A DNA stretch of 52,712 nt from a virus (lineage: Duplodnaviria; Caudoviricetes), in the IMG/VR virus record IMGVR_UViG_3300021520_000236, positions 1 to 52,712 of that record; one strand, 5' to 3'. The notes below the pieces were generated by a model, which saw only the letters and a program-made list of their open reading frames with translations, did not search any database and was not told the origin of the DNA. The position numbers and the translations under genes are program-made. How positions within the stretch are numbered: position 1 is the first letter of the stretch; the number at the start of each line of letters is the position of its first letter. Below are positions 33,949-49,419 of the stretch, in pieces.

Positions 33949-34439
33949 AAACCCGCAATCTACTCCTTGCCGTTTGTCTTTGCTTCTCACTTTCGGCCTG
34001 TCAGACCCCTTTCGGAAAATCCGTCTCCGCGTGGTGGGCAAAACCGGCGACACAGCAGGGGGTCGCCTGCGCGGAGGAGGCGGCAACCCAGTTCGCCGTC
34101 AACGCCGCCCTGGCCGCTCTCCAGCAGTGGGCGGGCGGAGGAAAGTTGAACTACCAGCAGATCGCGCTCCAAGGCGGTATCTCCACCCTCTACATGCAGG
34201 CCAGCAACATCCGCCAGCTTCAAGGGACCAGCTTAGTTCTCGATCCGGTTGCCACGGCGCAACTACTACAGCAAGGAGGAACGCCAGAAGAAATCAGCCG
34301 CAAGCTCGCCACTGAACTCGTCGCCAACGCCAACGCCCTCATTCTTCAAACCGGGATCACCCCGAGTCAGGCCGCCGAGATCAATGCAGCGGCATTGGAT
34401 AAATCCGCCGTCGTCGTCAAAACCATCACCACGCCATGA
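33945..34439 (+). CDS. Lipoprotein (possible spanin-like component)
   Basis: MKTRNLLLAVCLCFSLSAC lipobox. Confidence 0.7.
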   Translation: MKTRNLLLAVCLCFSLSACQTPFGKSVSAWWAKPATQQGVACAEEAATQFAVNAALAALQQWAGGGKLNYQQIALQGGISTLYMQASNIRQLQGTSLVLDPVATAQLLQQGGTPEEISRKLATELVANANALILQTGITPSQAAEINAAALDKSAVVVKTITTP

Positions 34440-34756
34440 ACGCAATCAAAGCATTTTTCGTCAGCAAGCTCGGCAGCATCCTCACACCGATCATCGCGGG
34501 CGTTGTCGCCGTGGCAGTCACAAAGATCGCGGCACTCGATCCGAACCTCGCCAGCGCAATCGACCAGAACGCCGTGACGGGATGGATCGTCCTCGCCGTG
34601 ATCTCCGTCATCAACTACCTCACGAACAAGCAGAGTGCGGACGGCATCAAATCCATCCAAGCACTCGTCAACACCAAGCAGGACGGCGTTGCCGGACCCG
34701 TGACCTATACGGAGGTCAGGAAGGCCATTGCCGTGGCTCCTGTGACCCTTCCGTGA
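34436..34756 (+). CDS. Holin-like 2-TM protein with C-terminal peptidoglycan-binding-like motif
   Basis: Two TM helices; IQALVNTKQDGVAGPVT. Confidence 0.65.
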   Translation: MNAIKAFFVSKLGSILTPIIAGVVAVAVTKIAALDPNLASAIDQNAVTGWIVLAVISVINYLTNKQSADGIKSIQALVNTKQDGVAGPVTYTEVRKAIAVAPVTLP

Positions 34757-34922
34757 ACGATAGGGAGATCATGGAAGCAGCGATCCGTCACATGGGCGAC
34801 AAGCCGGTTCCCGCCCAAGACGACCGGCCATTTTTGGTTCGCCTGTTCGCCAGCCTCCGCGCAAAGCTCATCGGGCCAGCCAACAAGCCAACCGGCATCG
34901 AGATAACGGGAGGGACCGACTT

Positions 34923-35309
34923 TTGAAACACATCGTCATGGCTTCTTCGTTTGCGGACCCCGCCGATGTCGCCGCGTTCCGCCGCTGCAAGGCCAAGGGC
35001 ATGTCGGACATCGAGGCGTTCCGATTCGGCGACAATGCCATAGGCCGATGGGGAGACTCGACGGCAGAGGGATCTGGTCCGTCGTGCGCTCTGCCGCCAG
35101 AGGATTGGAAACCGCTTGGCGACAAGGCCCATCTTGCCAAGGTGCGGGTTTTTTCAAACGGGAAAGAGGTTGTCTGTCTTCTTAAGGACACAATGCCTGC
35201 ACGCGCCCACATCACGAATAAATGCGGGATAGACCTGAATCCTGATGCGTGCGAGGCGCTCGGGCTGCATCCGCCTGTATTGACGGCGGCTACTTGGGAG
35301 TGGGTTTAA
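34923..35309 (+). CDS. RlpA-like double-psi beta-barrel protein; candidate endolysin
   Basis: ASSF, CAL, VRV..NGKEV....D..P, IDL.P.A...LG. Confidence 0.65.
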   Translation: MKHIVMASSFADPADVAAFRRCKAKGMSDIEAFRFGDNAIGRWGDSTAEGSGPSCALPPEDWKPLGDKAHLAKVRVFSNGKEVVCLLKDTMPARAHITNKCGIDLNPDACEALGLHPPVLTAATWEWV

Positions 35310-35741
35310 TCCCAGCATCCTCCTGCGCCATGTCGCAAGCAGCCGCAAGGAACATGATCGCCGCTTTGTGCTGGCCGTCCTTGTTGGCGATGGTCGCGCA
35401 GGAAATGGCCGATGACAGAATTTCTTGTCCGGTGACCTTGGCGCGACCTTTGATGATCTCCTCAACCTGCTTGCGTTCTTCCGGCCAGCGAGTGCCGTAA
35501 AGGTCGCGCATGGTAGGTGTCCCTGACCGCCGACGTTCTGCATATAAGAATTGTGTTCCTCGCGTGGTTTCCCAAAATGTTGTTCCGCGCATTTTCGGCA
35601 GTAAAATTCTCCGCAATAGAGGCACCGATACGCGAATCGAAGCCCTATCGTCTTGCCGCAATGACACGTTACATGTGCTCCCATGATTCCTGCTTGTAGG
35701 AACTGCGCTGCTACCCTTTCCCGTTTTGATGAAGTCGGCAT
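35154..35741 (-). CDS. Cys-rich zinc-finger protein reading into S0 (C-terminal extension probably due to the lost stop)
   Basis: CHC...CLYC....C..C...H then NVGGQG. Confidence 0.5.
   Translation of the reverse strand: MPTSSKRERVAAQFLQAGIMGAHVTCHCGKTIGLRFAYRCLYCGEFYCRKCAEQHFGKPREEHNSYMQNVGGQGHLPCATFTALAGRKNASRLRRSSKVAPRSPDKKFCHRPFPARPSPTRTASTKRRSCSLRLLATWRRRMLGLNPLPSSRRQYRRMQPERLARIRIQVYPAFIRDVGACRHCVLKKTDNLFPV
35290..35511 (-). CDS. Hypothetical protein, last gene of arm B, converging on the lysin
   Basis: MRDLYGTRWPEE...; 3' overlap with lysin. Confidence 0.45.
   Translation of the reverse strand: MRDLYGTRWPEERKQVEEIIKGRAKVTGQEILSSAISCATIANKDGQHKAAIMFLAAACDMAQEDAGIKPTPK
35517..35541 (+). 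repeat. attC-like half site S0 (L'-R' only)
   Basis: CCCTGACCGCCGAC-GTTCTGC; GTTCTGCAT complements ATGCAGAAC at 36014-36022. Confidence 0.65.
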
Positions 35742-35853
35742 TTATCGTGTGGGCTTGAGAAGCAGGACCACGAGCGTCCAGAAGATCAGGAAGAGGCTCC
35801 AGTCTATCGCGTGCAGGAGCTTCAAGGCTTCGGTGATTTGTTCCGGCGTCATA

Positions 35854-36072
35854 CTACGAAGAGAATTGCAGGATTCCGTCGATCAGCAGGAACGGTTGCG
35901 CCCACCATTGATCTTGGTTTCGATCCAAGAACGTGTGGCCGTCGGCCTTCATCTGCTTGTGGGTTTCGTTGAGGTAGTCCGGCCTATAGGTGGCGCTGGT
36001 CGCGCATCCCGAAATGCAGAACAAGGCGAGGCAGCTAATCGCCGCCAGCCCGGTGTTGAATTTACGTTTCAT
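35854..36072 (-). CDS. Small lipoprotein with signal peptide encoded by attC S1
   Basis: MKRKFNTGLAAISCLALFCISGC. Confidence 0.6.
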   Translation of the reverse strand: MKRKFNTGLAAISCLALFCISGCATSATYRPDYLNETHKQMKADGHTFLDRNQDQWWAQPFLLIDGILQFSS

Positions 36073-36130
36073 TTTACGAGTTCCCTTTCACTGTTTTTGG
36101 TTGTGCCGCGTCGGGCGGCGATTGCTGCTC
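36016..36130 (+). repeat. attC-like site S1 (R' end deleted)
   Basis: GCAGAAC-AAGGC-GAGGCAGCTAATCGCCGCC ... GGCGGCGATTGCTGCTC. Confidence 0.7.
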
Positions 36131-36161
36131 TTAATTATTTTTGCATGAGCGAAAAATATCT

Positions 36162-36252
36162 TGAGAACAAGGCCGTTCAGAGAACGGCGGGGCGACACAA
36201 CTTTCGATTTCACGCCTCATCCTCCCGCCGTCCCTGACGGCCAGCGTTCGCA
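36162..36252 (+). repeat. attC-like site S2
   Basis: TGAGAAC...GGCCGTTCAGAGAACGGCGGG / CCCGCCGTCCCTGACGGCC...GTTCGCA; two extra bases in left arm. Confidence 0.88.
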
Positions 36253-36545
36253 GAATATATGCGCCCCCTACGGACTCCTCGCGGGTAGATCAGCACGATT
36301 TTTGTCGGCATGAACTCCGCGTTTAAGGGCAGCCATTTCCGGCTTTTGATTTTGTGGGCACCGTAAACGTGCCAGTGATTCGGTCCCATTTGCAGAGGCT
36401 CGCCCCAGAAAATTCCGGCATCCTTCCAGCGGCGCATTGTTTCCGGCCCGTTGGCTCTGATGATCCGCATTCTTGAAATATCGTGCGAACAATCCGGTGC
36501 AGGAAATCGCTGGCCGGTGGGTGTTGAGATGGAGCGAGTCGTCAT
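36210..36545 (-). CDS. Cassette-borne hypothetical protein
   Basis: Starts in S3 loop, stops in S2 loop. Confidence 0.6.
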   Translation of the reverse strand: MTTRSISTPTGQRFPAPDCSHDISRMRIIRANGPETMRRWKDAGIFWGEPLQMGPNHWHVYGAHKIKSRKWLPLNAEFMPTKIVLIYPRGVRRGRIYSANAGRQGRREDEA

Positions 36546-36604
36546 ATCAGTGTGTTTTCGGTTCCGCCGTGCCAGCCAGCGATTTCTGACCGGCAGCGTT
36601 CGCA
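36484..36604 (+). repeat. attC-like site S3
   Basis: TGCGAAC...CCGGTGCAGGAAATCGCTGGC / GCCAGCGATTTCTGACCGG...GTTCGCA. Confidence 0.9.
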
Positions 36605-36858
36605 GGAATATCCTCCGGTTCGTAGGTCGCAGCGAAGATGTCTGGCTTGCACGGATAAAACTCTCCCTTCACTCCCTTGATGATCCAGTCGCCAATAGAT
36701 GCTGTCATTACGCCTTCAAGAGTTGGAATAAACACGCCTTGCGTGTCGCTGAATGCGATGTGTTCAAGCCCCATGAATGCAAGAATTTCTGATCTGCTAT
36801 CGGTGGTTCCGTTGTATTGGATTGCTTCGATGACTACTGGTTTTTTGCGGTATCTCAT
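36547..36858 (-). CDS. Widespread phage protein (PGDYG-like family), cassette-borne
   Basis: YRKKPVVIEA.Q, IPTLEG.M.A..GDWIIKGVKGEFYPCKPDIF..TYE. Confidence 0.88.
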   Translation of the reverse strand: MRYRKKPVVIEAIQYNGTTDSRSEILAFMGLEHIAFSDTQGVFIPTLEGVMTASIGDWIIKGVKGEFYPCKPDIFAATYEPEDIPANAAGQKSLAGTAEPKTH

Positions 36859-36884
36859 ATTATTGGTTGCGGGTTAAAAATCAC

Positions 36885-36937
36885 TGCGAACAAGTCAGTG
36901 GGCCGAATCCTTCGGATCGGCCACTTTTGCGTTAGCC
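36885..36937 (+). repeat. attC-like site S4 (minimal, 53 bp)
   Basis: TGCGAAC-AAGTC-AGTGGGCCGAATCC-TTC-GGATCGGCCACT-TTTGC-GTTAGCC. Confidence 0.88.
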
Positions 36938-37257
36938 AAAATATCGCGGAGCCTGTATATGACCGCCGCCGTGGGTTCCGCATCCTTCCAGAGCGGCGTT
37001 TCCCATCGGTCAACCACGGCTTGCGCGGCCATCTCCACTTCCTCCAGACGCTCGGCATGTTGCCAAAGATTTTCCCTGAGTTTATTGTTTTCCGCGATCA
37101 GTTCCCGAACCCGATGGACTACCGAGTGACCGGGGGCAATCGGCGTTCCGATAGCCTCCGCAATTTGCTGGAGATGTTCCGCGAAGCGTGTCCGCATTTC
37201 ACGCGCGGCAGAATACGCGGATTGTAGGTCTTTGTGGTCCGGATATTGAGAGTTCAT
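36895..37257 (-). CDS. Cassette-borne hypothetical protein
   Basis: AQAVVDRWETPLWKD motif; stop inside S4. Confidence 0.7.
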   Translation of the reverse strand: MNSQYPDHKDLQSAYSAAREMRTRFAEHLQQIAEAIGTPIAPGHSVVHRVRELIAENNKLRENLWQHAERLEEVEMAAQAVVDRWETPLWKDAEPTAAVIYRLRDILANAKVADPKDSAH

Positions 37258-37664
37258 TCCTTTTCCTCCAAGAGCAGATGCAGGATATACTGTTCCTCCC
37301 CCATGATCTTTTGGCAGAGTTTGTCGCAGTCGAGTTGGCGCGAGTGCCTGAGATCAGATCCAGCCTTCGCTTGCTCCTTGAGTTTTGCGGCGAGCGCATA
37401 CGCCTCATTCAGATTCTTGAGGTTGGCGACATGGGTTCTGATTCGCTGGTCCATCAAGGCCAGCTTGCCCTTGTAGATCGGCGGGAGTTTCGAGATCAGG
37501 CCGGTGATTGACAGGTATTGATCCCATGCGTCGTCTCCGGTCCTCCATTGCATTTCGCAGGATGCCGTTGAGCGGAATCCTTTCGGGGTCCGCTTCATCT
37601 TTTGCACGGTGATTATCAGTTTGTCCCGCATGTCGGCGGGGTTTTCGTCGGGTGTCAGTTTCAT
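37254..37664 (-). CDS. Cassette-borne hypothetical protein
   Basis: ATGA-coupled to 36895-37257. Confidence 0.65.
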   Translation of the reverse strand: MKLTPDENPADMRDKLIITVQKMKRTPKGFRSTASCEMQWRTGDDAWDQYLSITGLISKLPPIYKGKLALMDQRIRTHVANLKNLNEAYALAAKLKEQAKAGSDLRHSRQLDCDKLCQKIMGEEQYILHLLLEEKE

Positions 37665-37671
37665 AAAAATT

Positions 37672-37737
37672 GGCTAACAATGTGGTGCAGGAGAATGGCT
37701 CCGCTTCGCTACGCCATCCCTGACCACTGCGTTAGCC
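37672..37737 (+). repeat. attC-like site S5
   Basis: GGCTAAC-AAT-GTGGTGCAGGAGAATGGC ... GCCATCCCTGACCAC-TGC-GTTAGCC. Confidence 0.92.
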
Positions 37738-38015
37738 TTATCGTGGTGACTCACCAGTATTGCGTGCTCCTTGTCGGCGTTGGTCACAATCTCTCGTAGT
37801 CTGTCGTTTCCCCACCTTAACTCCGGCCCGAGGGTGGCAAGTGTTCCGTCCACACCGCTGATGTAGTATTGCACATCCCCACCATACAGCCCGTAGTGGA
37901 TTCTTTCTTGCAAATCCACAGGTAGAGCGGCTAACAGCCCATCCACCGAATCCTCACCCGTGCGGGCTTGGGGTGGTGGCTGCGTTTCAGTTTCGTTCGA
38001 TGTCGTAGTTTGCAT
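37674..38015 (-). CDS. Cassette-borne hypothetical protein
   Basis: Starts in S6 loop, stops at the TAG of S5 R''. Confidence 0.65.
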   Translation of the reverse strand: MQTTTSNETETQPPPQARTGEDSVDGLLAALPVDLQERIHYGLYGGDVQYYISGVDGTLATLGPELRWGNDRLREIVTNADKEHAILVSHHDKANAVVRDGVAKRSHSPAPHC

Positions 38016-38059
38016 ATTAGTCTTTCTTTGGGTGAGGATCGGTGATGGTGATGTTCGGC
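37929..38059 (+). repeat. attC-like site S6
   Basis: GGCTAAC...CCATCCACCGAATCCTCACCC / GGGTGAGGATCGGTGATGG...GTTCGGC; extra C and A. Confidence 0.92.
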
Positions 38060-38730
38060 CTACGGCAGCGGATGCCTTTGGTGACAGTAGGCCATGGCAA
38101 GTAGCAAAGCTCTTTTAGAAGCCGGAAGTTCTGGCATACATCCCGCCATTTTCCATCCCAGCGGACCTGATCGCCTTCCTGCAACTTTGTGCCGGGTTCA
38201 AGCTCGTTGGGATCGCGTTCAGAGTCGAAGTGTTTGCCGCATCCGCCTTTGTCTTTTTGGCAGTAGTGCCCGAAGTAGTGAGTTCCATCGAAGTCGATGT
38301 CTCTGGTCCATGTATAGACGTGTTCCTTGCTGTGGCATTGCGGGCACGATATGGCCGAACATGCGATGGAGCGAACCACAGGCCGCTCGGGAGTTTCATT
38401 TGGATTCATAGGTTTTTCTTTCTGCGGCCCGTGGCCGCTCATCTGGTCGTTCGACAAAATACCGCGCACTTCCGAGAGCGGAATGTCGCTGCCTTTCCCA
38501 GATGAGATATGCACCGGAAACGCCCGATTTGAGAAGTCCATGAGACATCCCTTTGAGCAGATGTCCCAATCCTTTTGCCGGTTTAGTTCCACGAGTTGCG
38601 TTGAGCCTCCATGTTCCTTCAGCGAATACCAGCCGGAGAACGGATGCCCTCCGATCCAGCCGGAGCCTTCGTCGGTGACTTCCTTCCCGCAGACATCGCA
38701 TTTCAGAATTGTTGATTTTCGAGTTGCCAT
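38017..38730 (-). CDS. In-frame fusion of two cassette ORFs (two Cys-rich domains) through S7; internal ATG at 38409
   Basis: CDVC...CSKGC domain, attC-encoded linker, CPQC...C......C domain. Confidence 0.65.
   Translation of the reverse strand: MATRKSTILKCDVCGKEVTDEGSGWIGGHPFSGWYSLKEHGGSTQLVELNRQKDWDICSKGCLMDFSNRAFPVHISSGKGSDIPLSEVRGILSNDQMSGHGPQKEKPMNPNETPERPVVRSIACSAISCPQCHSKEHVYTWTRDIDFDGTHYFGHYCQKDKGGCGKHFDSERDPNELEPGTKLQEGDQVRWDGKWRDVCQNFRLLKELCYLPWPTVTKGIRCRRPNITITDPHPKKD
38354..38455 (+). repeat. attC-like site S7
   Basis: GCCGAAC...GATGGAGCGAACCACAGGCCGC / GCGGCCCGTGGCCGCTCATC...GTTCGAC. Confidence 0.88.
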
Positions 38731-38736
38731 AAAAAT

Positions 38737-38838
38737 GTCGAACCAAGTCGTCCAGCGAACCCCTACCCGCCAGACGGTTGTTTTTGATTTTCGGGATTCT
38801 CGCCAGCGGGCAGGGGCCGCTGACGACCGACGTTCGAC
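38737..38838 (+). repeat. attC-like site S8
   Basis: GTCGAAC...GTCGTCCAGCGAACCCCTACCCGC / GCGGGCAGGGGCCGCTGACGAC...GTTCGAC. Confidence 0.9.
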
Positions 38839-39260
38839 AAAATATGGGATGCGATTTCGTTGACCTCACCGCAGGAAAGGCAGTCCTCGTGGCATCCTGC
38901 GTAGGATTCCGTTTTGATCTTTTCCATCGCGGCGCGAAACTGGCCGTTTCGTTTCCAGTGCCGGTCGCGTTGTGCGAGAGTTGCGATCAGGTCCGCTTCG
39001 AGCTTGTCCCCGGCATTGATGAGCCTCGCGTTCTCGGCGGCGAGGTTGTCGCGCTCTTTCCTGTCCTCATCGCGAATAATTTCCCCATCGCGCCACATGT
39101 TCAACTCGGTTTCGATGGAGGCGTTCTCGGATTCAACCTTGTAGTATTTCGCAACGATGTCTGCGGCGGCGAGCAATGCGGGGACCTTCCCTGCCAGCGT
39201 TCCTTTTTTGAGCGTGGCGGCTAGCTCGCGCAGGGTGGTTTCGGTTTGGTTGGTGGTCAT
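38763..39260 (-). CDS. Coiled-coil hypothetical protein ending inside S8
   Basis: Heptad pattern; C-terminus NVGRQRPLPAG is attC-encoded. Confidence 0.7.
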   Translation of the reverse strand: MTTNQTETTLRELAATLKKGTLAGKVPALLAAADIVAKYYKVESENASIETELNMWRDGEIIRDEDRKERDNLAAENARLINAGDKLEADLIATLAQRDRHWKRNGQFRAAMEKIKTESYAGCHEDCLSCGEVNEIASHILSNVGRQRPLPAGENPENQKQPSGG

Positions 39261-39320
39261 ACGTTCAAAAAGTCCCGCCGCGCTGGCCGTGAGGGGTTGT
39301 GATATTCAATGTCATAAATG

Positions 39321-40841
39321 CTATAATAACTTTGCTGGTTCCGGTTTCGTGTAGATCGGGTTGTATCTGTTGAGCCTTCCCCGGATTATCACCCTGTCTC
39401 TTTCGGCCTTTGCGAGAGCATCGTAGGCGACGGACTTCCCGCATCCGGTGAGGTCTTTGATCTTGTAAAGGAGTTCTGTTCTCGTGATCTGATCCTCGAA
39501 AAGATCGGCAACGTCTTGGCTTGAAAGTGCGGCCTTTTTATTCCCTGGCGCTTTCTTTTCGAGCCCTACGGACTGCCGGAACTCCTCCGGGTCGAAGTCG
39601 GGGTTAATCCGGTAGATCCCAACTTCCTCATCAAGCATCACGCCCATCTCCGGGAACTGTGCGCCGTTGTTGTTCTTCCCGCATGCCATTACCATCAGGC
39701 GCGGGTTGTCCGGGTCTTGAGGTGCCAGGTTCACCTGTGCACGGGTCCATGCGTAGAGAGCTTTTGAGTTGCGCCCGAAAGATGATTTGTCCCATCCTAC
39801 GGCCTTTGCGGCTCCGAGTTTTCCGGTAGCCGAGTGATGCACGACGACAGGGACACGCTGCGGGTTCCCCTTCTTGACCGCCCGAGAGAGAGCTGTAACA
39901 ACCTGCTTCATGTCACGGTCGTTGTTCAGTTCCAGACTGGTGAAGGTATTGAGCGGATCGAAACAAACGAAGTGCGGGTCGTGGTCGGCAATCGCTTGCT
40001 CGATATGCCGGATCTCGTCAGTCTCCAAGTCGAGGAAGGTATCTTCGTCCTTCTCTACCGTGTGGATGACAAAGCAGTCGTCGATAAGAAGCGTATCCTC
40101 TTTTTGAAATCCCAACCCTCTCACCATCTTGGTGATGTCAGTTTTTAGGCGGCGGTTTGAGTTCTCCGTTTGGAATACGAGCCACTTCTTCCCGCGAGCG
40201 TGTGTTTCAATCCCGAGGAACGGGCGCCCGGTTATCATGCAAAAAGCTAGCTGCATGAGGAGTCTGCTTTTCCCGATCCCTCCGGGGCCGAGGATCGTTA
40301 CCGGCTGGCTGGCGGCGATGATCCTATCCCCGAAATAATTGTCGGACTCGTCGAAGTCCATATTCACGAGTTCTGTAATCGTGCGGATGGACAGGCGGGA
40401 CTTCTTGCTTTTTACCGTGTGGTTGAGCTGCTTGAAGTTCAGCGCGATCTCTGTCGGGTCTTCGCCCTTCTTCACCGCTACTTGGATTTGCTGTGAGACG
40501 GTCGAGTTGTGCGCGTTGACCTTGTGCTTCCAGAGGGTTTCGCAATATCCCTCGAAGACTGCCGGGACCGAAGACTGCCCCTCGTTTATCAGGGCATCCG
40601 CGATGGCCTGGTTCACCTCCGGGGAGCCGCCAGCAAAGAAGCTCGCGATGGAAAGGTAATCGAATGTCTCCCCGTTCTCGTGCCGCCTTGCAAGTTCTGC
40701 GAATACCTGCCGGTAATGGTCCGCGACGAACGATTCGGTAGTGACCTCGTATTTGTCAACGATTCCCCAGCGGTCTTTCCCTGACAGGAGCCCGGCGAGG
40801 ATGCCGAGTTCGGCGGCTTGTGTCGGCCAGTTGTTCTTCAT
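39321..40841 (-). CDS. RepA-like SF4 helicase (AAA_25) with DnaB-like N-terminal domain
   Basis: GPGGIGKS, QTEN, FDPL, VVHH, R.S, KNN. Confidence 0.85.
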   Translation of the reverse strand: MKNNWPTQAAELGILAGLLSGKDRWGIVDKYEVTTESFVADHYRQVFAELARRHENGETFDYLSIASFFAGGSPEVNQAIADALINEGQSSVPAVFEGYCETLWKHKVNAHNSTVSQQIQVAVKKGEDPTEIALNFKQLNHTVKSKKSRLSIRTITELVNMDFDESDNYFGDRIIAASQPVTILGPGGIGKSRLLMQLAFCMITGRPFLGIETHARGKKWLVFQTENSNRRLKTDITKMVRGLGFQKEDTLLIDDCFVIHTVEKDEDTFLDLETDEIRHIEQAIADHDPHFVCFDPLNTFTSLELNNDRDMKQVVTALSRAVKKGNPQRVPVVVHHSATGKLGAAKAVGWDKSSFGRNSKALYAWTRAQVNLAPQDPDNPRLMVMACGKNNNGAQFPEMGVMLDEEVGIYRINPDFDPEEFRQSVGLEKKAPGNKKAALSSQDVADLFEDQITRTELLYKIKDLTGCGKSVAYDALAKAERDRVIIRGRLNRYNPIYTKPEPAKLL

Positions 40842-41032
40842 TTCTTGGCCTTCGGGATGACGTGACGGTCAACGTAGTTTTGCAGGTGCTCTTTCGCTCT
40901 CTCCGCGTCAACGCGACCCTCTTCCGTGTCCGGGTAGTCGAAGCACTTGATTGGAAGAGGCGCGGACCTTTCCAGCCTGTGACCGGCTGGCCCGTGCTCT
41001 GTCCATAGTTGTAGGCGTAGGGAGATTGTCAC
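40838..41032 (-). CDS. Hypothetical protein
   Basis: Coupled to helicase start. Confidence 0.55.
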   Translation of the reverse strand: MTISLRLQLWTEHGPAGHRLERSAPLPIKCFDYPDTEEGRVDAERAKEHLQNYVDRHVIPKAKK

Positions 41033-41107
41033 GCGGCGAAAAGGTTCAGCTGCGATTTCGCGGACACGAGGAACCGTTGACTTTGGTTTTGATGAAATCG
41101 TCGTAGT

Positions 41108-41344
41108 TCATTTATCGGCCTTGCGTTTCCGGCAACGATCAATCGCCTGCCGGATTGCTTTTCTTTCTTCCGGGTCAAACGCGGCGATCTTCACGTCCGG
41201 GAAGTTTTGAAATTCGGGGAATGTTTCGATTATTACGGTGATGCAGCCTCCCGGCTTTCCGAGGTGGTCTAGCATCGGTTGGATGCGCCTTGTCCATTCA
41301 ACCTGGTTGAATAGCGGCGGGCATATTTGGAATGTCAGGCCCAT
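41108..41344 (-). CDS. Hypothetical protein
   Basis: Fits the operon. Confidence 0.55.
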   Translation of the reverse strand: MGLTFQICPPLFNQVEWTRRIQPMLDHLGKPGGCITVIIETFPEFQNFPDVKIAAFDPEERKAIRQAIDRCRKRKADK

Positions 41345-41354
41345 CGGGAGTCAG

Positions 41355-41816
41355 TCAGGCGTTGCAGAACTTGTCACGCGCATAGGCGGCAACGGCGAGA
41401 GCGGCCCAAACGTGCGACTTGATACCGTAAGTCGGTCCCGGTTCTTTCTTCGTTCCTTGCGGTCCAAGGCGGTCAATAAGTGCCTGCCGTATATTGGCGT
41501 CTTTCGCCCGCATGCTGCCGCAGAGATGAATCTTGATGTCCTTTCGGAAGATCAGTTCAAACCCTGAGTCAAGCGACCTCGCTTCCATGAACCGGCCAAT
41601 CCAAAGGCATGTTTCAAAAGTCTCGCGTCCTACCGGCATTCCATATGAGGCGATCATCTCGCAAGCGACGAGTGCCGGCCACGGTTTGAACAGTCTGCCA
41701 GATAGCCAGTCGCGCACGGTCTGGTTTTCCTCAAATCCGTGCGATGCAATTCCGTCATTGTCAAGAATGACGAACGCGCTATGCGTCGTGCCTGGGTCAA
41801 TAGCCAAGATAGTCAT
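41355..41816 (-). CDS. RuvC-like Holliday junction resolvase
   Basis: ILAIDPGTTHS, EMIASYGMPVG, IGRF, AKDANIRQALIDR. Confidence 0.85.
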   Translation of the reverse strand: MTILAIDPGTTHSAFVILDNDGIASHGFEENQTVRDWLSGRLFKPWPALVACEMIASYGMPVGRETFETCLWIGRFMEARSLDSGFELIFRKDIKIHLCGSMRAKDANIRQALIDRLGPQGTKKEPGPTYGIKSHVWAALAVAAYARDKFCNA

Positions 41817-41992
41817 ACAAAGTTCAAGTCGTGCTTACGGGCGATCCAGTCAGACGCCAGAATAAATCCTTCCCTTACCCGGCATTCGCTGCGGGGAAGC
41901 CAAGCGGTAACTCTCCGGTGCGCTTGGGCTTGGAATATCAGGACAGCTTTCGCGGTCTTGCGGATTATCTGGCATCTGACTTTCACGCTCAT
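41813..41992 (-). CDS. Small hypothetical protein
   Basis: T.KAVL...WLPRS motif; coupled to neighbours. Confidence 0.55.
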   Translation of the reverse strand: MSVKVRCQIIRKTAKAVLIFQAQAHRRVTAWLPRSECRVREGFILASDWIARKHDLNFV

Positions 41993-42204
41993 CAGAGTTG
42001 TTCCACTGAATTTGTGGAAAGGAATGTCTCGATGTGGCGAGGGAGAATAAGAACCTTTCCACCTATCTTGCAAAATCCAATCCTTCTGGCCGCAAGATGC
42101 GCGTCAATAGTCCTAAGCCCCATGTTGAGCATGGATGCAGCCTGTTGGCGGGTGTAAGTTGTTATTCTCGATACTTGTTCGATTTGTGTGTTTTGTTTTT
42201 TCAT
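41992..42204 (-). CDS. HTH_17 excisionase-like DNA-binding protein
   Basis: YTRQQAASMLNMG.RTI......I...KIG.KVLI....IE.FL. Confidence 0.8.
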   Translation of the reverse strand: MKKQNTQIEQVSRITTYTRQQAASMLNMGLRTIDAHLAARRIGFCKIGGKVLILPRHIETFLSTNSVEQL

Positions 42205-42473
42205 CAGAGTTTCATTTCGGTTTGCTGCGGGTCGCGGACCATGAACTCGGTTTCGTCGGTGTGCTTCACCGCGTATCCGATCTTAATTTTGACCGCTCTG
42301 CTTTGCCCGGAGTGGTCGAGAGAGATTCCGAGGGACACGTTTCCGGATTGTCCCTCAGTCTCTCCGATCATCTTTTGGATGCCGGTCCAGTTGGCTTCCA
42401 GAATGTCGGAAAGCATGGCTTGGACTTCGGCGAGCTCCTTTTCAGAAAAGGTCTGTTCGGTTGGTTTGCTCAT
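42204..42473 (-). CDS. Hypothetical protein
   Basis: Coupled ORF ending DPQQTEM. Confidence 0.65.
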   Translation of the reverse strand: MSKPTEQTFSEKELAEVQAMLSDILEANWTGIQKMIGETEGQSGNVSLGISLDHSGQSRAVKIKIGYAVKHTDETEFMVRDPQQTEMKL

Positions 42474-42476
42474 TTT

Positions 42477-42911
42477 TTAGATTCCTACTTTTTGTTTGTG
42501 TGCGATTTCACGGTGATGCTTGAAGCACATCCAGCGAACCGCCAATGGTTTTGAATAGTCGAGGTGGTGAGCCTGTGAGTTGGCTTCTCCGCAAACTTCA
42601 CAAGGCATCCGGGTAATCCGTCCGTCTCTGATTGCGTTTGATACAGCCGATAGCGCCTTGCATTTCTGCGGGTTTTGAATCCGGCGCTTTTTGTTGTATT
42701 CGCGCAGTTGCGCTTTTCTGTGTTCTGACTGAAACCTTGCCTTTTCGTATGCTACTACCTTCGCTCGCCCTTCTTGAGACAAGTATCTGGCCGTCACGTC
42801 CAACTTTGTGCATTCCTTGCACTTGTTTAAGTGGCCGTCTGCCATCTGCGGATGGGGATAGAACTCAGAGAGTTCTTTTTCCCCACCGCATTTGAAGCAT
42901 TTCTTCGACAT
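42477..42911 (-). CDS. HNH-type endonuclease with N-terminal zinc finger
   Basis: C.KC...K...EFY...CKEC; CEVCG...AHH.DYSKPL.V.W.C..HH. Confidence 0.85.
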   Translation of the reverse strand: MSKKCFKCGGEKELSEFYPHPQMADGHLNKCKECTKLDVTARYLSQEGRAKVVAYEKARFQSEHRKAQLREYNKKRRIQNPQKCKALSAVSNAIRDGRITRMPCEVCGEANSQAHHLDYSKPLAVRWMCFKHHREIAHKQKVGI

Positions 42912-42946
42912 TACAGGTTGCGTTTTTAACGAGGTATTCGCGCCTC

Positions 42947-43489
42947 TCAGTTAAAAGGTATGTCGTCTTGTCCTTCGGGGGCCGCGTTCGCCGGACCGTC
43001 AGCCTTCGCCGCTGGTGCCGCCGTGCCGCCGTTGACCGTCTTGGCGATAGCCTTGGCCTTGCGCCCCATCTTTGAGATGAGAGAGGCAACTTTAGCCCCG
43101 TCCATCTCCTTGCCGCAGCCGCCCGCGTTGTTCAGCCATTTGGCTTTGATGCGCGTCTCGCCGTTGTAGGTTTCGGACTCGGCCACGATCTCGCATTCCG
43201 AACCGGCAAAAGAGAACGTGCCGTTGTGCAGCGCGTCCATGTCGCCGTTCCATTGCGGGAACGTCTTGCAGAGGTTTTCGATGGTCCGGTCAAAGGCGGC
43301 GTCCGAAAGCCATCCTGTATAGACGATCTCCTTGCCTTGCTGGTCCCCGGCCTCTGTGACTTTGCACGGGATGCGGATGAATGGCGTTTGCTTCTCGCCA
43401 GCCTCGCCAAACCACCCGTTGCCGGGTTGCTTGACGACGCAAAGGTAGCTGCCGGCCTTGTTGACGTATTTGTTGTTTTCTTCGCTCAT
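42947..43489 (-). CDS. ssDNA-binding protein (DUF669-like)
   Basis: G.Y, TP.I, KWLN, DDIPF tail. Confidence 0.75.
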   Translation of the reverse strand: MSEENNKYVNKAGSYLCVVKQPGNGWFGEAGEKQTPFIRIPCKVTEAGDQQGKEIVYTGWLSDAAFDRTIENLCKTFPQWNGDMDALHNGTFSFAGSECEIVAESETYNGETRIKAKWLNNAGGCGKEMDGAKVASLISKMGRKAKAIAKTVNGGTAAPAAKADGPANAAPEGQDDIPFN

Positions 43490-43492
43490 GTT

Positions 43493-44386
43493 TTATTTGG
43501 TTTTTGGTTGGAGTGATTGGAGTTTCGCGATCCCGCCTTTCACGCGGTCGGGCGGGAGCGAAGTGACATCCACCTTTGCCCACTTCTCGCGATCGGCTGC
43601 GGGCATGTCGGCGGTTTTTAGGAGGGCGAGGTATTGCTCGCGGAGTTTGTCTGGCCGGTTGGCTTGAACTGCGGCGTCGAAGTCTTCCCACGAGAGCGGG
43701 AGAGTTTCTGGGAGTCCCAAGCGGTTCTTGGCGTCCCATCCTGGGCTCCATTGCGTGTGGATGATCCGGTCGCCTCCGATCACCTTTTCGCGCTGTTCGC
43801 CCTTCTCCTTTGTCTTGAAAACCTCATAGACCGCAAACAAGCACGCATCCGGCCACTCGCGGAGAATCCCGGTGAATCCGCGATGTCCCTTGCTTTCATA
43901 ACGATCCCAAGTCGTTCCGTCCGGGGAGTTGAAAGGCTTGATATGGACGTGCGAGAGGAGAACGATTCCCATTTTCTGCTGCTGGCGCAGGTGGTCGAGT
44001 TTGGAAAGAAGCAACACAAGCTCTTGCTCCGCGACTTTGTAGCCCTTCCCGTAGCCATAATCCTCGATGCTAGCCTTGCTGTCGCGGGTGCAGACAAACG
44101 AATGGATTGACCGTTCCAGCCAGTCCATCGTGTCAATCACAAGCGTCTTGTATTCCGAACCGTTAGCTGCCAGTTCGTCAACGATAGCCGTGACATCCGC
44201 AAACGTCTCAGGTGTGACGCGGGCAACGTGATCCAATCCGGTCAAGCCGTCCTCTTGGCTAATGAAGAGAGGGAATGGGGCGGATGCTCCAAACGTGCTT
44301 TTCCCGATTCCTTCCGGACCTGCGAGTGACACGCGGGGAGGCAGGCTCTCTCCACCGCGTTTGATCTTACTGAGGATTGTGCTCAT
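43493..44386 (-). CDS. AAA_24 (Sak4-like) ATPase, paralogue of 4968-5885
   Basis: GPEGIGKST, LVIDTMDWLE, GYGKGY, EWPD, WDAKNR. Confidence 0.9.
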   Translation of the reverse strand: MSTILSKIKRGGESLPPRVSLAGPEGIGKSTFGASAPFPLFISQEDGLTGLDHVARVTPETFADVTAIVDELAANGSEYKTLVIDTMDWLERSIHSFVCTRDSKASIEDYGYGKGYKVAEQELVLLLSKLDHLRQQQKMGIVLLSHVHIKPFNSPDGTTWDRYESKGHRGFTGILREWPDACLFAVYEVFKTKEKGEQREKVIGGDRIIHTQWSPGWDAKNRLGLPETLPLSWEDFDAAVQANRPDKLREQYLALLKTADMPAADREKWAKVDVTSLPPDRVKGGIAKLQSLQPKTK

Positions 44387-44389
44387 AGA

Positions 44390-45319: not shown

Positions 45320-45323
45320 AAAG

Positions 45324-45530
45324 TTAGAGCTGTCCCCGGCGTTGTAGCCGAAGGATAAATTCGGAAGATTCGATGGCGTCTTGCAATTTGGCCTTGGCGG
45401 TCGCGTATTGGTTCCCGCAACCGATAAGTGCTCCCTGTGTCTTGGAAGGGAGAGATCCCCAGCAAGGTTCGCAGAACTGCTTGGTTTCCTTCTTGGCCCC
45501 TCCACACGAGCATTTCCCAGTCGTGTTCAT
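45324..45530 (-). CDS. Small zinc-finger protein
   Basis: CSC........FC..CW..LP. Confidence 0.65.
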   Translation of the reverse strand: MNTTGKCSCGGAKKETKQFCEPCWGSLPSKTQGALIGCGNQYATAKAKLQDAIESSEFILRLQRRGQL

Positions 45531-45733
45531 TTGTGGGGAAAGCTGGTTTTGCTGGCGGATTCGATGTCGCGGAAAAACTTCTCCGTCTCGACTTGCTGGC
45601 GGCAGGCGTCGTATGTCCCGCGCTTGACCCCGTGCCGGTAGCCTTCGTTGTAGGCGTCTTTAACGAGCGCGTTGACTACTGCCGTGATCCCGACGATGGA
45701 AAGCAGGCCGGATAGGATGAAAATGGCAATCAT
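45527..45733 (-). CDS. Small TM protein, paralogue of 4745-4954
   Basis: MIAIFILSG...QQVETEKFFRDIESASKTSFPHK. Confidence 0.8.
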   Translation of the reverse strand: MIAIFILSGLLSIVGITAVVNALVKDAYNEGYRHGVKRGTYDACRQQVETEKFFRDIESASKTSFPHK

Positions 45734-47707: not shown

Positions 47708-47771
47708 TGAAACAAGTGCAATATAAACAAGGTTCACTTAACCCGTCAACAATTATTTTGAATTATTTTTC
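47708..47771 (-). promoter_or_regulatory. Arm B early promoter (UP element, TTGACG-18-TATATT) with operator in the spacer
   Basis: 47743-47771 is a 28/29 inverted copy of 2825-2853. Confidence 0.8.
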
Positions 47772-47794
47772 ATGCCCCAGAATCCCTGTGTTTA

Positions 47795-49346: not shown

Positions 49347-49419
<73 letters not shown>

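What the first reader, a model, noticed from the sequence alone, without database searches (positions are those of the whole stretch)
35517..38838. Integron attC cassette array inside a phage early operon, with all genes antisense and no IntI
Seen: nine mutually dissimilar hairpin sites (S0-S8; the 7 complete ones are 53-131 bp) with AAC...GTT cores, unpaired spacers and extra bases on the left arm. Several have A/C mismatches that become G-T pairs on the bottom strand, which are attC hallmarks. Each cassette's first core complements its own last core: GTTCTGCAT/ATGCAGAAC, GTTCGCA/TGCGAAC, GTTCGCAG/CTGCGAAC, GTTAGCCAA/TTGGCTAAC, GTTAGCC/GGCTAAC, GTTCGGCC/GGCCGAAC, GTTCGACA/TGTCGAAC. Cores within S2, S4, S6 and S7 mismatch, the footprint expected from real recombination at GTT. 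Unlike usual integrons, every ORF is on the bottom strand and in line with the phage early operon, and at least one is a typical phage gene. Neither integrase here shows the IntI-specific insertion. Inference: the phage uses a host IntI in trans to gain and shuffle accessory genes.
Basis: partly seen in the sequence, partly recalled or inferred. Interest (0 to 1): 0.93.

Follow-up and report, generated by a model that had tools for sequence, protein, structure and literature searches.

The report
Backwards integron cassette array in prophage
A string of eight integron-type recombination hairpins separates small genes at the end of a phage-like early operon in a freshwater Verrucomicrobiota provirus, with every gene on the strand opposite to the one normal integron cassettes use, and the same hairpins recur beside different genes in other viral contigs.

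Summary
Window 36014-38840 carries eight attC-type hairpins (S1-S8), plus a partial ninth (S0, ending 35543), all oriented on the + strand.

Evidence that they are attC sites:
- A covariance model built from 25 attC sites beside integron-integrase genes in a related Verrucomicrobiota genome hits seven of the eight. These are the seven best + strand hits in 52.7 kb.
- A second model, built from sites in other contigs, hits all eight (E <= 1.2e-6).
- The outer core letters at each cassette's two ends are complementary for 7-9 bases in 7 of 7 cassettes. Within-site cores mismatch in S2, S4, S6 and S7.

The genes lie on the - strand by codon statistics, and one is the common phage family phrog_419. 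No IntI is present in the window. Four of five related host genomes encode one.

The 45-base S4 core recurs in six other metagenome contigs with different flanks. Their genes are again antisense where homology places them. One viral contig keeps an internally deleted intI in the canonical position.

attC clusters in phages are already published (Qi et al. 2023). What looks new is the systematic reverse gene orientation and a cassette pool shared among phages. Action of IntI on these sites is inferred, not shown.

The parts
35517..35543 (+). S0: partial site made of a right-arm-like stretch, a spacer and the right core GTTCTGCAT (G at 35535). It could be an attI-like junction or the remnant of a degenerate 132-bp site starting near 35412.
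   Evidence: Sequence; fold of 35405-35546. Its core is complementary over 9 nt to the left core of S1. Neither model detects it.
36014..36146 (+). S1: attC-type site with left core ATGCAGAAC and a degenerate right core. The start codon of lipoprotein gene g3 lies in its loop.
   Evidence: R2 36.1 bits, E 1.2e-6. R1 10.9 bits, E 1, partial match. Folds.
36160..36254 (+). S2: attC-type site, only 13 nt from S1, with no gene between them.
   Evidence: R1 31.7 bits, E 2e-6. R2 40.7 bits. z-score -3.43.
36482..36606 (+). S3: attC-type site. The g5 stop and the longest g4 start both lie in its loop.
   Evidence: R1 16.6 bits, E 0.027. R2 50.7 bits. z-score -3.92.
36883..36939 (+). S4: the shortest attC-type site. 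Its 45-nt AAC..GTT core recurs in six other metagenome contigs.
   Evidence: R1 12.1 bits, E 0.48. R2 59.5 bits, but R2 contains three S4 copies. Other copies.
37670..37739 (+). S5: attC-type site. The g8 ORF reads through it and stops in its left core.
   Evidence: R1 17.8 bits, E 0.013. R2 47.1 bits. z-score -4.52.
37927..38061 (+). S6: attC-type site, the least typical. It has G-T pairs on the + strand and mixed bulge sides. The g8 start lies in its loop.
   Evidence: No R1 hit. R2 36.1 bits, E 1.1e-6. An 80% identical copy occurs in L211.
38352..38457 (+). S7: 102-bp attC-type site. The g9 ORF reads through it in frame, and an internal ATG (38409-38407) lies in its loop.
   Evidence: R1 34.1 bits, E 4e-7 on + against 7.6 bits on -. 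R2 40.9 bits. An S7-like site accompanies the g9C-like gene in L207.
38735..38840 (+). S8: 102-bp attC-type site. It is the closest to the host-clade integron attC family, sharing the left-arm word TCCAGCGAAC.
   Evidence: R1 41.7 bits, E 3.4e-9 on + against 17.6 bits on -. R2 48.9 bits. z-score -4.15.
35742..36072 (-). g2 (35742-35852, 36 aa, hydrophobic) and g3 (35854-36072, 72 aa, with a signal peptide and lipobox read by eye). They sit in the cassette between S0 and S1.
   Evidence: Codon score positive for both. Translations. No family hit for g3.
36210..36545 (-). g4 (111 aa, or 86 aa from the ATG at 36470). Its stop lies in the loop of S2, 12 codons past the G|TT boundary.
   Evidence: No family hit.
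36547..36858 (-). g5, a member of phrog_419 (function unknown). Homology ends at about residue 83. The last 20 residues come from reading into S3.
   Evidence: phrog_419 E 2.3e-35 over aa 1-83. 560 of 564 pattern matches in viral contigs encode relatives, and most of the 80 kept loci match only up to aa 79-85. L126 is 87% identical in DNA over 36617-36858 only.
36895..37664 (-). g7 (37254-37664) and g6 (36895-37257), two overlapping genes in one cassette. The g6 stop lies inside S4.
   Evidence: Codon scores of +41.8 and +14.7 in total. A g7 relative (59% identity over aa 1-71) sits beside an S4 copy in L208.
37674..38015 (-). g8 (113 aa). It starts in the S6 loop and stops in the left core of S5.
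   Evidence: No family hit.
38017..38730 (-). g9 (237 aa), an open frame spanning two cassettes and S7. The N part (38458-38730) and the C part (from the ATG at 38409) both carry Cys-X2-Cys pairs.
   Evidence: A relative of the C part (54% identity over aa 176-233) occurs in L207. Only sub-threshold Zn-ribbon hits.
38763..39260 (-). g10 (165 aa), the first cassette gene after the helicase. Its stop lies in the S8 loop.
   Evidence: Codon score +36.7. No family hit.
39321..40841 (-). Helicase (AAA_25 / DnaB-like N-terminus), the last recognisable backbone gene upstream of the array.
   Evidence: PF13481 E 9.7e-25. PHROG helicase and primase families.

Best explanation
Window 35.5-38.8 kb is an integron-type cassette array with no integrase of its own. 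In IntegronFinder's terms it is a CALIN, a cluster of attC sites lacking an integron integrase. It sits at the promoter-distal end of a leftward phage-like early operon (anti-repressor, exonuclease, Sak4-like annealase, endonuclease, Holliday-junction resolvase, helicase). The record is a provirus of a freshwater Verrucomicrobiota host.

Shown here:
- Eight sites have the attC build: 7-nt AAC/GTT cores, an unpaired spacer, and an imperfect stem with extra bases on one arm.
- All eight are in one orientation, with the window's + strand as the canonical 'top' strand.
- Each stretch between sites behaves as a cassette that was once a circle, because its two outer cores are complementary.
- The genes lie on the - strand. 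Each gene therefore follows its attC instead of preceding it. The mRNA-sense strand is the strand that integron integrases normally recombine (the bottom strand).
- Four start codons (g3, g4, g8, g9C) lie inside attC loops. Six ORFs (g4, g5, g6, g8, g9N, g10) run 12-23 codons past the G|TT boundary until a stop turns up in the neighbouring site.

Inferred:
- An integron integrase cuts the folded - strand between A and C of the AAC that ends each gene (G|TT on the + strand), excising and re-inserting cassettes. The integrase is supplied by the host or was once carried by the element.
- Because all sites in an array must share one polarity and all genes in an operon share one strand, 'all genes antisense' is a single binary outcome, not eight coincidences.
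- The cassettes are expressed by read-through from the phage early promoter, not from an integron Pc promoter.
For: 1. Independent model. R1 was built from 25 attC sites lying beside intI genes that pass TIGR02249's cut-off in genomes G005 and G004.
- With filters off, its seven best + strand hits in the whole 52,712-base window are S8, S7, S2, S5, S3, S4 and S1. Scores are 41.7, 34.1, 31.7, 17.8, 16.6, 12.1 and 10.9 bits; E runs from 3.4e-9 to 1.
- The best hit outside the array has E 1.6.

2. Strand. On the - strand S8 scores 17.6 bits and S7 7.6 bits. With R2 all eight sites score 36.1-59.5 bits on + and 10.6-14.5 bits on - for the five of them listed there.

3. Controls.
- R1 on 95 kb of seven distant prophage loci: best E 0.065.
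- R1 on 86.6 kb of eight viral loci: best E 0.35.
- R2 on the same 95 kb: one hit, E 0.71.

4. Reciprocity. R2 was built only from phage and metagenome contig sites. It finds 39 hits at E <= 0.01 in five host-clade integron loci. 38 of them lie in arrays next to intI, and all 38 are on the canonical strand.

5. Canonical orientation control. In G005 arrays, 5 of 7 cassette ORFs tested on the attC top strand have Pfam domains.

6. Cassette signature. Perfect complement runs of 9, 7, 8, 9, 7, 8, 8 nt for 7 of 7 cassettes, against 4, 7, 3, 7, 3, 5, 8 within sites; permutation 5 of 20000. Read by eye, the same rule holds at 10 of 12 adjacent site pairs taken in L206, L207, L208, L211 and L212 (7-9 nt each); the weak L207 hit at 3049-3116 was left out.

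7. Mobility. The exact 27-mer of S4 occurs in 6 metagenome contigs and 2 viral records, the latter being two of the same contigs.
- Similarity to the window is limited to S4 plus scattered cassette pieces in a different order.
- All 7 copies carry different outer core letters on both sides.
- In L207 the g9C-like gene keeps an S7-like attC on its right and the same right-core letters on its left, but has a different attC core to the left. This is what a crossover at G|TT of the + strand predicts.

8. Integrase link.
- 4 of 5 related genomes have a TIGR02249 match over cut-off.
- Viral contig L212 has a 146-aa internally deleted integron integrase. TIGR02249 is its best family (60.6 bits, E 1.5e-16) over model positions 2-73 and 263-313.
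- It lies where intI belongs relative to the attC polarity. A core, GTTCGGATT, next to its start complements the left core of the first attC.

9. Genes antisense.
- In the window: phrog_419 on the - strand and the codon scores.
- In other arrays: a Mom-like protein (phrog_1384, E 9.7e-53) lies on + between attC sites on - in L212. A g7 relative in L208 and a g9C relative in L207 lie opposite their attC sites.
Against: - No integrase-mediated event is observed. All evidence is comparative.
- IntegronFinder's own attC model was not available. My models have short calibrations, so their E-values are rough. R2 is fitted to R1's structure and contains S4 copies and S6/S7 relatives, so it is not independent for those sites.
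- R1 misses S6 and is weak for S4 (E 0.48) and S1 (E 1).
- S6 has more G-T pairs and a lower energy on the + strand.
- The S1 right core is degenerate, and the S1-S2 junction does not follow the complementarity rule.
- The S4 core carries different outer letters on BOTH sides in all 7 copies. In L208 a g7 relative is joined to an S4 core instead of an S5 core, right at the AAC. A single crossover point at G|TT of the + strand does not explain a changed left side.
- The S4 core was not found in any of 401 genomes of the host's order at up to 2 mismatches, so no link to a host integron is shown.
- The seven closest helicase relatives fetched, at 38-51% identity, have no such array.
- The host of this provirus is known only from one flanking gene: 96% protein and 87.6% DNA identity to a Verrucomicrobiota MAG.
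Confidence: 0.68

Rival explanations
1. The array is a piece of a bacterial chromosomal integron (or a chromosomal CALIN) that merely lies next to prophage remnants. The provirus call is too wide, and the phage does not own or use the cassettes.
For: - The window holds two separate phage-like early modules: two Sak4-like genes only 34% identical, and two helicases.
- No att repeats were found, and CheckV completeness is 48, so the element borders are unknown.
- One contig from another run departs from the window at 39293, between g10 and the helicase. Another departs at 35272.
- The host clade is rich in integrons.
Against: - The attC sites are mutually dissimilar, unlike the near-identical 102-103 bp family of the host-clade chromosomal arrays.
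- Genes are antisense here, whereas the chromosomal arrays have sense genes.
- g5 belongs to a family found in at least 560 viral loci.
- The sister array in L212 carries a Mom-like phage gene and lies in a contig with a phage O-like replication gene.
- The array is co-oriented with the helicase and 60 nt from it.
- The S4 core was found in 0 of 401 genomes of the order.
Confidence: 0.1
2. The hairpins descend from attC sites but no longer work as such. The array is a frozen relic of a phage-borne integron whose integrase was lost. The hairpins now serve, if anything, as RNA stem-loops between genes, and mosaic exchange happens by the phage's own homologous recombination at these short shared sequences.
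For: - The window has no intI, and only a deleted intI exists in L212.
- The S1 right core is degenerate.
- S4 copies differ on both flanks. Homologous exchange within a shared 45-nt core, or at conserved extended cores, could produce this.
- The element encodes an exonuclease and a Sak4-like annealase.
- The sense strand carries the G-T-rich version of most hairpins (5 of 8), which would fold well as RNA.
Against: - Outer cores of each cassette are still perfectly complementary for 7-9 nt in 7 of 7 cassettes. This decays quickly without site-specific turnover.
- S4 copies are 94-98% identical over 45-59 nt in five of the six other contigs (89% over 71 nt in L211), while their flanks are unrelated.
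- Break points fall exactly at AAC and GTT.
- Host-clade genomes supply IntI.
Confidence: 0.15
3. The hairpins are an IntI-independent kind of phage intergenic repeat, such as terminators or regulatory stem-loops, that only resemble attC by chance or convergence.
For: - They lie at gene boundaries and overlap start and stop codons.
- No Rfam family reaches threshold in the array.
- The relatives found through the helicase lack them.
Against: - Two-way covariance-model recognition with bona fide attC sites next to intI, with clean negative controls.
- A shared left-arm word and the same 102-bp length between S8 and the host-clade family.
- A deleted intI and an attI-like core beside the sister array.
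- No excess of terminator-like sites: 9 found against 8.5 expected.
Confidence: 0.05
4. The arrangement is an assembly chimera, with contigs joined wrongly at repeated hairpins.
For: - Hairpin repeats such as S4 occur at several loci in the same community.
- One contig diverges at 39293.
Against: - The 4-kb stretch is held at 0.79-1.00 of sampled words in 9 runs.
- Contigs laid from four runs of two later studies match with 0-1 differing letters and bridge S0-S1 (X7 record 19), S3 (X7 record 20), S5 and S6 (X7 record 22, X9 record 30) and S8 (X7 record 23, X9 record 31).
- The sites are mutually dissimilar, so they would not mislead an assembler.
Confidence: 0.02

Closest known systems
Clusters of attC sites lacking an integron integrase (CALINs) in bacteriophage genomes. 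Source: Qi, Rajabal, Ghaly, Tetu and Gillings 2023, Front Microbiol, PMC9892861. I read the abstract, part 1 of 3 of section 3 (the intro, section 3.1 and the heading of 3.2) and all of section 3.4.
   Same: attC sites with cassettes inside phage or prophage genomes and no intI nearby. That paper reports 17 CALINs, 3 complete integrons and one In0 among 10,705 phage genomes. It shows that 5 of 6 tested phage attC sites recombine with attI1 under IntI1. It also proposes cassette exchange between phages and bacteria.
   Different: [quoted passage not shown]
- Here there are eight sites, every gene is antisense to its attC, start codons sit inside attC loops, and the same attC core is seen in seven contexts.
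- The host phylum is Verrucomicrobiota.
- Their supplementary tables, which list all 17 CALINs, could not be opened, so an antisense case may be hidden there.
Mobile-integron cassette arrays (class 1 type), as described in Cury et al. 2016 (PMC4889954, passages only) and Richard et al. 2024 (PMC13108822, passages only).
   Same: Heterogeneous attC sites of 50-150 bp. Outer cores of each cassette are complementary. The crossover is at G|TT. The bottom strand is the recombined one, about 1000 times more efficiently than the top strand according to the passage read in PMC13108822.
   Different: In those arrays the cassette ORF lies on the top strand, upstream of its attC, and is expressed from Pc beside a divergent intI. 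Here the ORF lies on the bottom strand, downstream of its attC, and no Pc or intI is present.
   Same: The same structural family of attC by models in both directions. S8 shares a 10-nt left-arm word and the 102-bp length with them.
   Different: The chromosomal arrays have near-identical attC sites (mean column identity 80%), sense-strand genes such as PEP-CTERM proteins and an intact intI.
Insertion of cassettes outside integrons at attG sites. Source: bioRxiv 10.1101/2022.09.11.507474. I saw only the search listing and the start of the abstract.
   Same: It offers a route by which a first cassette could enter a phage genome that lacks an attI site.
   Different: It does not predict antisense genes. 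No attG-type junction could be identified at either end of this array.
Promoter-stem-loop 'mobile regulatory cassettes' of T4-type phages.
   Same: Repeated intergenic hairpins that mark the break points of gene shuffling in phage early regions.
   Different: As recalled, those act through homologous recombination and carry promoters. They have no AAC/GTT cores, no complementarity between cassette ends and no link to integron integrases.

Membership tests
integron attC recombination site | Inverted 7-nt cores RYYYAAC ... GTTRRRY at the two ends, 50-150 bp apart | tested here: met
   S2-S8 have both cores, 53-131 bp apart. The S1 right core is degenerate. S0 has only the right core.
integron attC recombination site | Imperfect hairpin with an unpaired central spacer and extra (extrahelical) bases on the R''/L'' arm. 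This definition is recalled from the attC literature. | tested here: met
   Single-base bulges fall only on the 3' arm of the - strand in S2, S3, S4, S5 and S8, mostly so in S7, and on mixed sides in S1 and S6. Internal loops of 2-4 nt sit next to the core helix.
integron attC recombination site | Recognition by a covariance model of known attC sites | tested here: met
   Model R1, built from 25 attC sites next to intI, hits 5 of 8 sites at E <= 0.027 and 2 more at E 0.48 and 1; S6 is missed. Model R2 hits 8 of 8 at E <= 1.2e-6. IntegronFinder's own model is not available in these tools.
integron attC recombination site | Bottom strand folds better than top strand (G-T pairs against A/C mismatches) | tested here: inconclusive
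   The - strand is more stable and richer in G-T pairs in 5 of 8 sites. The + strand is favoured in S3 and S6 (energy and G-T pairs) and in S1 for G-T pairs only.
integron attC recombination site | Recombined by an integron integrase at G|TT | not testable with these tools
   Only indirect support: the cassette-end complementarity, and break points at GTT and AAC in other contigs.
integron gene cassette (canonical) | A promoterless ORF on the attC top strand, upstream of its attC | tested here: not met
   All 9 ORFs g2-g10 lie on the opposite strand. The control arrays of G005 do meet this feature.
CALIN (cluster of attC sites lacking an integron integrase; IntegronFinder definition read in PMC4889954 passages) | Two or more attC sites less than 4 kb apart on one strand, with no intI nearby | tested here: met
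   Eight sites on the + strand within 2.8 kb. No TIGR02249 match over cut-off anywhere in the 52.7-kb record. This was done with my own models, not with IntegronFinder.
complete integron | An intI gene (TIGR02249 over 265 bits) with attI next to the array | tested here: not met
   Best scores in the window are 24.2 and 30.6 bits, both far from the array. No remnant lies left of S0.

The most novel reading that the evidence does not exclude
This may be one member of a distinct 'phage-type' integron whose cassettes are built the other way round.
- The attC sits upstream of the gene and often holds the gene's start codon.
- The recombined (bottom) strand is the mRNA-sense, non-template strand.
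- The array is read from a phage early promoter towards a co-oriented intI, which survives as a deleted copy in contig L212.

These cassettes would form a separate pool exchanged among freshwater phages. They would be silent if captured by a bacterial integron, and bacterial cassettes would be silent in the phage. Early transcription would expose the recombinogenic strand, so cassette shuffling would be coupled to lytic growth. The array might also show how ordinary phage genes such as phrog_419 or a Mom-like gene become cassettes.
Probability: 0.3. Interest if true: 0.85.

Novelty: new variant of a known kind. Interest (0 to 1): 0.62.

Why it matters
Integrons are studied mostly as bacterial devices, and the origin of their cassettes is still an open question.

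Phage-borne attC clusters were reported in 2023, but as small arrays of ordinary build. This case offers three things:
- A long array in which ordinary phage genes sit in cassettes of reversed polarity.
- Sister arrays in other viral contigs that share an identical attC core in different gene contexts.
- One relative that still shows a decayed integrase in the expected place.

If the reversed polarity is functional, phages may run their own cassette economy. That pool would be insulated from the bacterial one by orientation, while using the same recombinase.

It also gives concrete substrates (S2-S8, both strands) and a natural population, the same lakes sampled over three years, in which cassette turnover and cassette birth could be measured.

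Tried and rejected
Searches that led nowhere:
- Rfam over the whole window found only three tRNAs.
- My first hairpin scan (AAC..GTT plus fold energy) was too unspecific: 16 and 15 hits spread over the window. I dropped it in favour of covariance models.
- Candidate extra sites at 3538-3664, 8638-8749, 39149-39302 and 41556-41690 were folded. Neither model supports them.
- Close relatives of the helicase: none in viral contigs and none in metagenome contigs.
- In 301 genomes of the host's order, 19 have a helicase match. Seven loci at 38-51% identity were fetched, and none has an array.
- g7 has no relative in viral contigs.
- The g10 leader has no exact match in viral contigs.
- A strict motif for this attC class found only 2 viral contigs. 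One of them, L218, has 4 model hits and was not followed further.
- The deleted intI of L212 retrieved only itself.
- No att repeats of tRNA-Asn or tRNA-Gly were found, and there is no synteny beyond the flanking gene in 5 related genomes. The element borders stay unknown.
- No similarity was found between the region left of S0 and the attI regions of L212 or G005.
- The promoter and terminator scan showed no excess.

Limits on what can be read from some results:
- No RNA holder is listed among the runs, so nothing can be said about expression.
- The depth figures are per contig. They were not used to rank regions, and parts without cover are not interpreted.
- Supplementary files of PMC9892861 could not be read.
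- Literature searches for antisense or inverted cassettes in phages listed no such report. I saw only titles and abstract starts for most hits, so I make no claim of absence from print beyond those searches.

Considered and set aside:
- The - strand as canonical top strand. In the gene-sense direction the cassettes look ordinary: GTTRRRY, an AT-rich leader, then ATG. But model scores, bulge sides, the deleted intI geometry in L212 and the L207 g9C cassette all point to the + strand.
- Gene-less attC cassettes having invaded a pre-existing operon. This would place the two complementary cores side by side, not across each gene.

Full report
CONTEXT

The window is a whole IMG/VR provirus record of 52,712 bases, 55% G+C.
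- Its left flank gene (31-1014, a MoxR-type ATPase) is 96% identical in protein and 87.6% in DNA to a Verrucomicrobiota MAG.
- A tRNA-Asn gene (1096-1168) and an integrase (1279-2343) follow it.
- On the + strand run a Sak4-like gene, a DnaB-like helicase, terminase, portal, major head and tail genes, up to about 33.7 kb.
- On the - strand, from about 48.8 kb downwards, run an anti-repressor, an exonuclease, a second Sak4-like gene (34% identical to the first), an endonuclease, a Holliday-junction resolvase and a helicase at 39321-40841. The region in question follows directly.

The record therefore holds two phage-like early modules. I could not find att repeats, so whether this is one element or two lying tail to tail is open.

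THE OBSERVATION

- Folded as single-stranded DNA, all eight full sites give the same picture: a 6-8 bp helix of the AAC and GTT cores, a 2-4 nt internal loop, and a long imperfect stem with single-base bulges around a variable loop.
- z-scores run from -1.41 to -4.52.
- On the - strand the single-base bulges lie only on the 3' arm in S2, S3, S4, S5 and S8.
- G-T pairs favour the - strand in 5 of 8 sites.
- The rule that a cassette's first core complements its last core holds for 7 of 7 cassettes, with perfect runs of 7-9 nt. Within-site cores give 4, 7, 3, 7, 3, 5, 8, and 48 of 50 other pairs reach 5 nt or less. Only 5 of 20000 random re-pairings reach the observed sum.

ARE THEY attC SITES?

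The host genome is not held, so I searched the five genomes closest by the flank gene.
- Four of the five have a match to the integron-integrase family TIGR02249 above its cut-off. None of 14 control genomes does.
- Upstream of three intI genes of genome G005 lie arrays of near-identical 102-103 bp sites. Their cassette ORFs are on the same strand as the site's 'extra bases on the left arm' orientation, and 5 of 7 tested ORFs have Pfam domains.
- From 25 such sites I built covariance model R1.

Searched over the whole window with filters off, R1's best + strand hits are S8, S7, S2, S5, S3, S4 and S1.
- Scores run from 41.7 down to 10.9 bits.
- Nothing outside the array falls below E 1.6. S6 is missed.
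- The - strand of S8 and S7 scores 24 and 26.5 bits lower than the + strand.
- Controls of 95 kb and 86.6 kb gave best E-values of 0.065 and 0.35.
- S8 even shares the left-arm word TCCAGCGAAC and the 102-bp length with the G005 family.

A second model, R2, was made from 15 sites found in other contigs.
- It hits all eight window sites on the + strand (36.1-59.5 bits, E <= 1.2e-6). Five of these sites also appear on the - strand, at 10.6-14.5 bits.
- It gives one hit at E 0.71 in the 95-kb control.
- It finds 38 attC sites of the host-clade arrays on the canonical strand.
- R2 is not independent for S4, S6 and S7, because relatives of these sites are in it.

I conclude that these are integron-type attC sites and that the + strand is their canonical top strand.

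THE GENES

Codon statistics were trained on 19 long ORFs of the window.
- They call all nine - strand ORFs g2-g10 coding.
- They call all 11 + strand ORFs antisense.
- Four mis-framed rows were dropped.

g5 belongs to phrog_419 (E 2.3e-35), and the match covers only residues 1-83 of 103.
- 560 viral stretches encode relatives, most ending at residues 79-85.
- The closest, L126, is 87% identical in DNA over 36617-36858 only.
- The last 20 residues of g5 are therefore read-through past the cassette boundary into S3.

The same pattern recurs across the array.
- g4, g6, g8, g9N and g10 also run 12-23 codons past the G|TT boundary to a stop in the neighbouring site.
- The start codons of g3, g4 (longest form), g8 and g9C lie in attC loops. 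g5, g7 and g9N start 6-26 nt after the left core.
- g9 is one open frame across S7.
- g3 looks like a lipoprotein, read by eye.
- The other products have no family.

In the gene's direction, then, each cassette is attC, leader, gene. This is the reverse of the canonical gene-then-attC order.

OTHER COPIES

The 4-kb stretch is held by 15 lake or freshwater runs of 9 studies dated 2018-2020. Nine of them hold at least half of the sampled words.

Laying the contigs of four runs gave pieces with 0-1 differing letters and no joints, but some loose ends:
- One contig differs from the window to the left of 36889, the A of the AAC of S4.
- One differs to the right of 36933, the last T of the GTT of S4.
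- One departs at 39293, between g10 and the helicase.
- One departs at 35272.

Each is a single contig at low depth.

An exact 27-mer of S4 then retrieved six metagenome contigs, two of which are also IMG/VR records.
- They resemble the window only in S4 (45-71 nt at 89-98% identity) plus scattered pieces. L207 has a g9C-like gene one cassette away from S4. L208 has a g7-like start joined to an S4 core. L211 has an S6-like site on the other side of S4.
- All seven S4 copies share the core from AAC to GTT but carry different outer letters on both sides.
- Each contig has further model hits, all on one strand per contig.
- The cassette-end complementarity rule holds at 10 of 12 adjacent pairs taken, read by eye; the weak L207 hit at 3049-3116 was left out. 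The exceptions are L207 c-d and L211 b-c.
- Where homology fixes the gene strand, it is opposite to the attC strand. This holds for the Mom-like protein in L212 (phrog_1384, E 9.7e-53), the g7 relative in L208 and the g9C relative in L207.
- Of 10 further array ORFs scanned, 2 have PHROG hits.

A DECAYED INTEGRASE

- In viral contig L212 the array (attC sites on the - strand at 7900-9336) is followed at 9607-10047 (+) by a 146-aa ORF.
- Its best NCBIfam family is the integron integrase (60.6 bits, E 1.5e-16), matched at model positions 2-73 and 263-313. It is therefore an internal deletion.
- Its C-terminal part is 38-44% identical to the intact intI genes beside the G001, G003 and G005 arrays (31-35% to three others).
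- This is the canonical place and direction for intI relative to the attC polarity. A core next to its start complements the left core of the first attC.
- The cassette genes there point towards intI.
- The window has no such remnant.

MECHANISM

Shown: the sites are attC-like, they bound cassettes, they share one polarity, their genes are antisense, they are shared among several contigs in different contexts, and they are linked to integron integrases both by the host clade and by the L212 remnant.

Inferred: an IntI cuts the folded - strand at AA|C at the end of each gene (G|TT on the + strand), excising a circle made of the gene plus the attC upstream of it.
- The L207 case fits this. The g9C-like gene keeps its S7-like attC and its own right-core letters, while the attC core to its left differs.
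- Variation on the LEFT side of S4 and the S4-for-S5 swap at g7 do not fit. They need either crossovers on the other strand as well, homologous exchange within shared cores, or repeated addition of one attC type to different genes, as happens in chromosomal integrons. I cannot tell which.

The uniform antisense polarity is most simply a single choice. One array has one polarity and one operon has one strand. Only cassettes whose genes face the phage promoter are kept.

That transcription of the sense strand exposes the recombinogenic strand is a hypothesis, not a finding.

WHAT IS KNOWN

Qi et al. 2023 (PMC9892861) screened 10,705 phage genomes. I read the abstract, part 1 of 3 of section 3 and all of section 3.4.
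- They found 17 CALINs, 3 complete integrons and one In0.
- They showed that 5 of 6 phage attC sites recombine with attI1 under IntI1.
- Their figured arrays have 2-3 sites in ordinary orientation.

The idea that phages carry attC cassettes usable by a bacterial IntI is therefore already in print. The passage read in PMC13108822 states that bottom-strand recombination is about 1000 times more efficient and fixes cassette orientation for expression from Pc. The array here inverts exactly that relationship.

My searches listed no report of phage arrays with systematically antisense genes. I saw mostly titles and abstract starts, and supplements were closed.

VERDICT

The identification as an attC cassette array without IntI is supported. 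'Host IntI in trans' is plausible but untested. The finding is a new variant of a known kind and is of moderate to high interest.

Noticed in passing
window 1279-33700 (+) and 34000-49300 (-): There are two separate phage-like early modules, each with its own Sak4-like gene (34% identical) and helicase. Only the + strand module has terminase, portal, head and tail genes. The record may hold two elements lying tail to tail. No att repeats were found.
   Followed up: partly
window 17416-17493: A tRNA-Met gene lies between the terminase and portal genes, apparently phage-encoded.
   Followed up: no
window 49346-50764: A tRNA-Gly gene (-) is followed by a second tyrosine recombinase (410 aa). Its best family is XerA-type at 73.6 bits, below cut-off. 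It may belong to a third integrated element at the right end of the record.
   Followed up: no
window, right cores of S2, S3, S4, S7, S8 and left cores of S2, S3, S7: The cores extend to about 13 nt with a conserved ATAT, as in GTTCGCAGAATAT. On the gene strand this makes unrelated proteins carry the same short peptide I-L/Y/P-S/A-N just before the boundary (g4, g5, g6, g9N, g10). The same motif flanks S4 copies in four other contigs.
   Followed up: partly
window 38017-38730: g9 is a single 237-aa open frame that crosses attC site S7 in frame. It joins two Cys-rich parts that belong to two different cassettes. It is unknown whether a fusion protein is made.
   Followed up: no
window 36146-36160: S1 and S2 are only 13 nt apart with no gene between them. 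S1 has lost its GTT. This may be an empty cassette or a dead site.
   Followed up: no
L213 2580-2637 (viral contig of 22,858 bases): A lone copy of S4 sits between two + strand ORFs in another viral contig. No other model hit was found there, so it is a single attC site in a phage.
   Followed up: no
G005 (L091, L093, L095, L096) and G003 C64: One Verrucomicrobiota genome has five full-length matches to the integron-integrase family above cut-off, on two contigs. Three of the four fetched have arrays of near-identical 102-103 bp attC sites, and several cassettes encode PEP-CTERM proteins. The G003 intI match contains an in-frame TGA.
   Followed up: partly
window 39293 and 35272: Single contigs from runs X7 and X9 leave the window's sequence at these two places, which bracket the array. 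The letters that follow 39293 in X7 begin with AAC. This suggests that another attC site, rather than the helicase, follows g10 in that population.
   Followed up: partly
L218 (viral contig of 43,740 bases, 62-69% G+C at the hits): Four attC-model hits on one strand in a viral contig of clearly different base composition. This may be another phage-borne array in a different host group.
   Followed up: no
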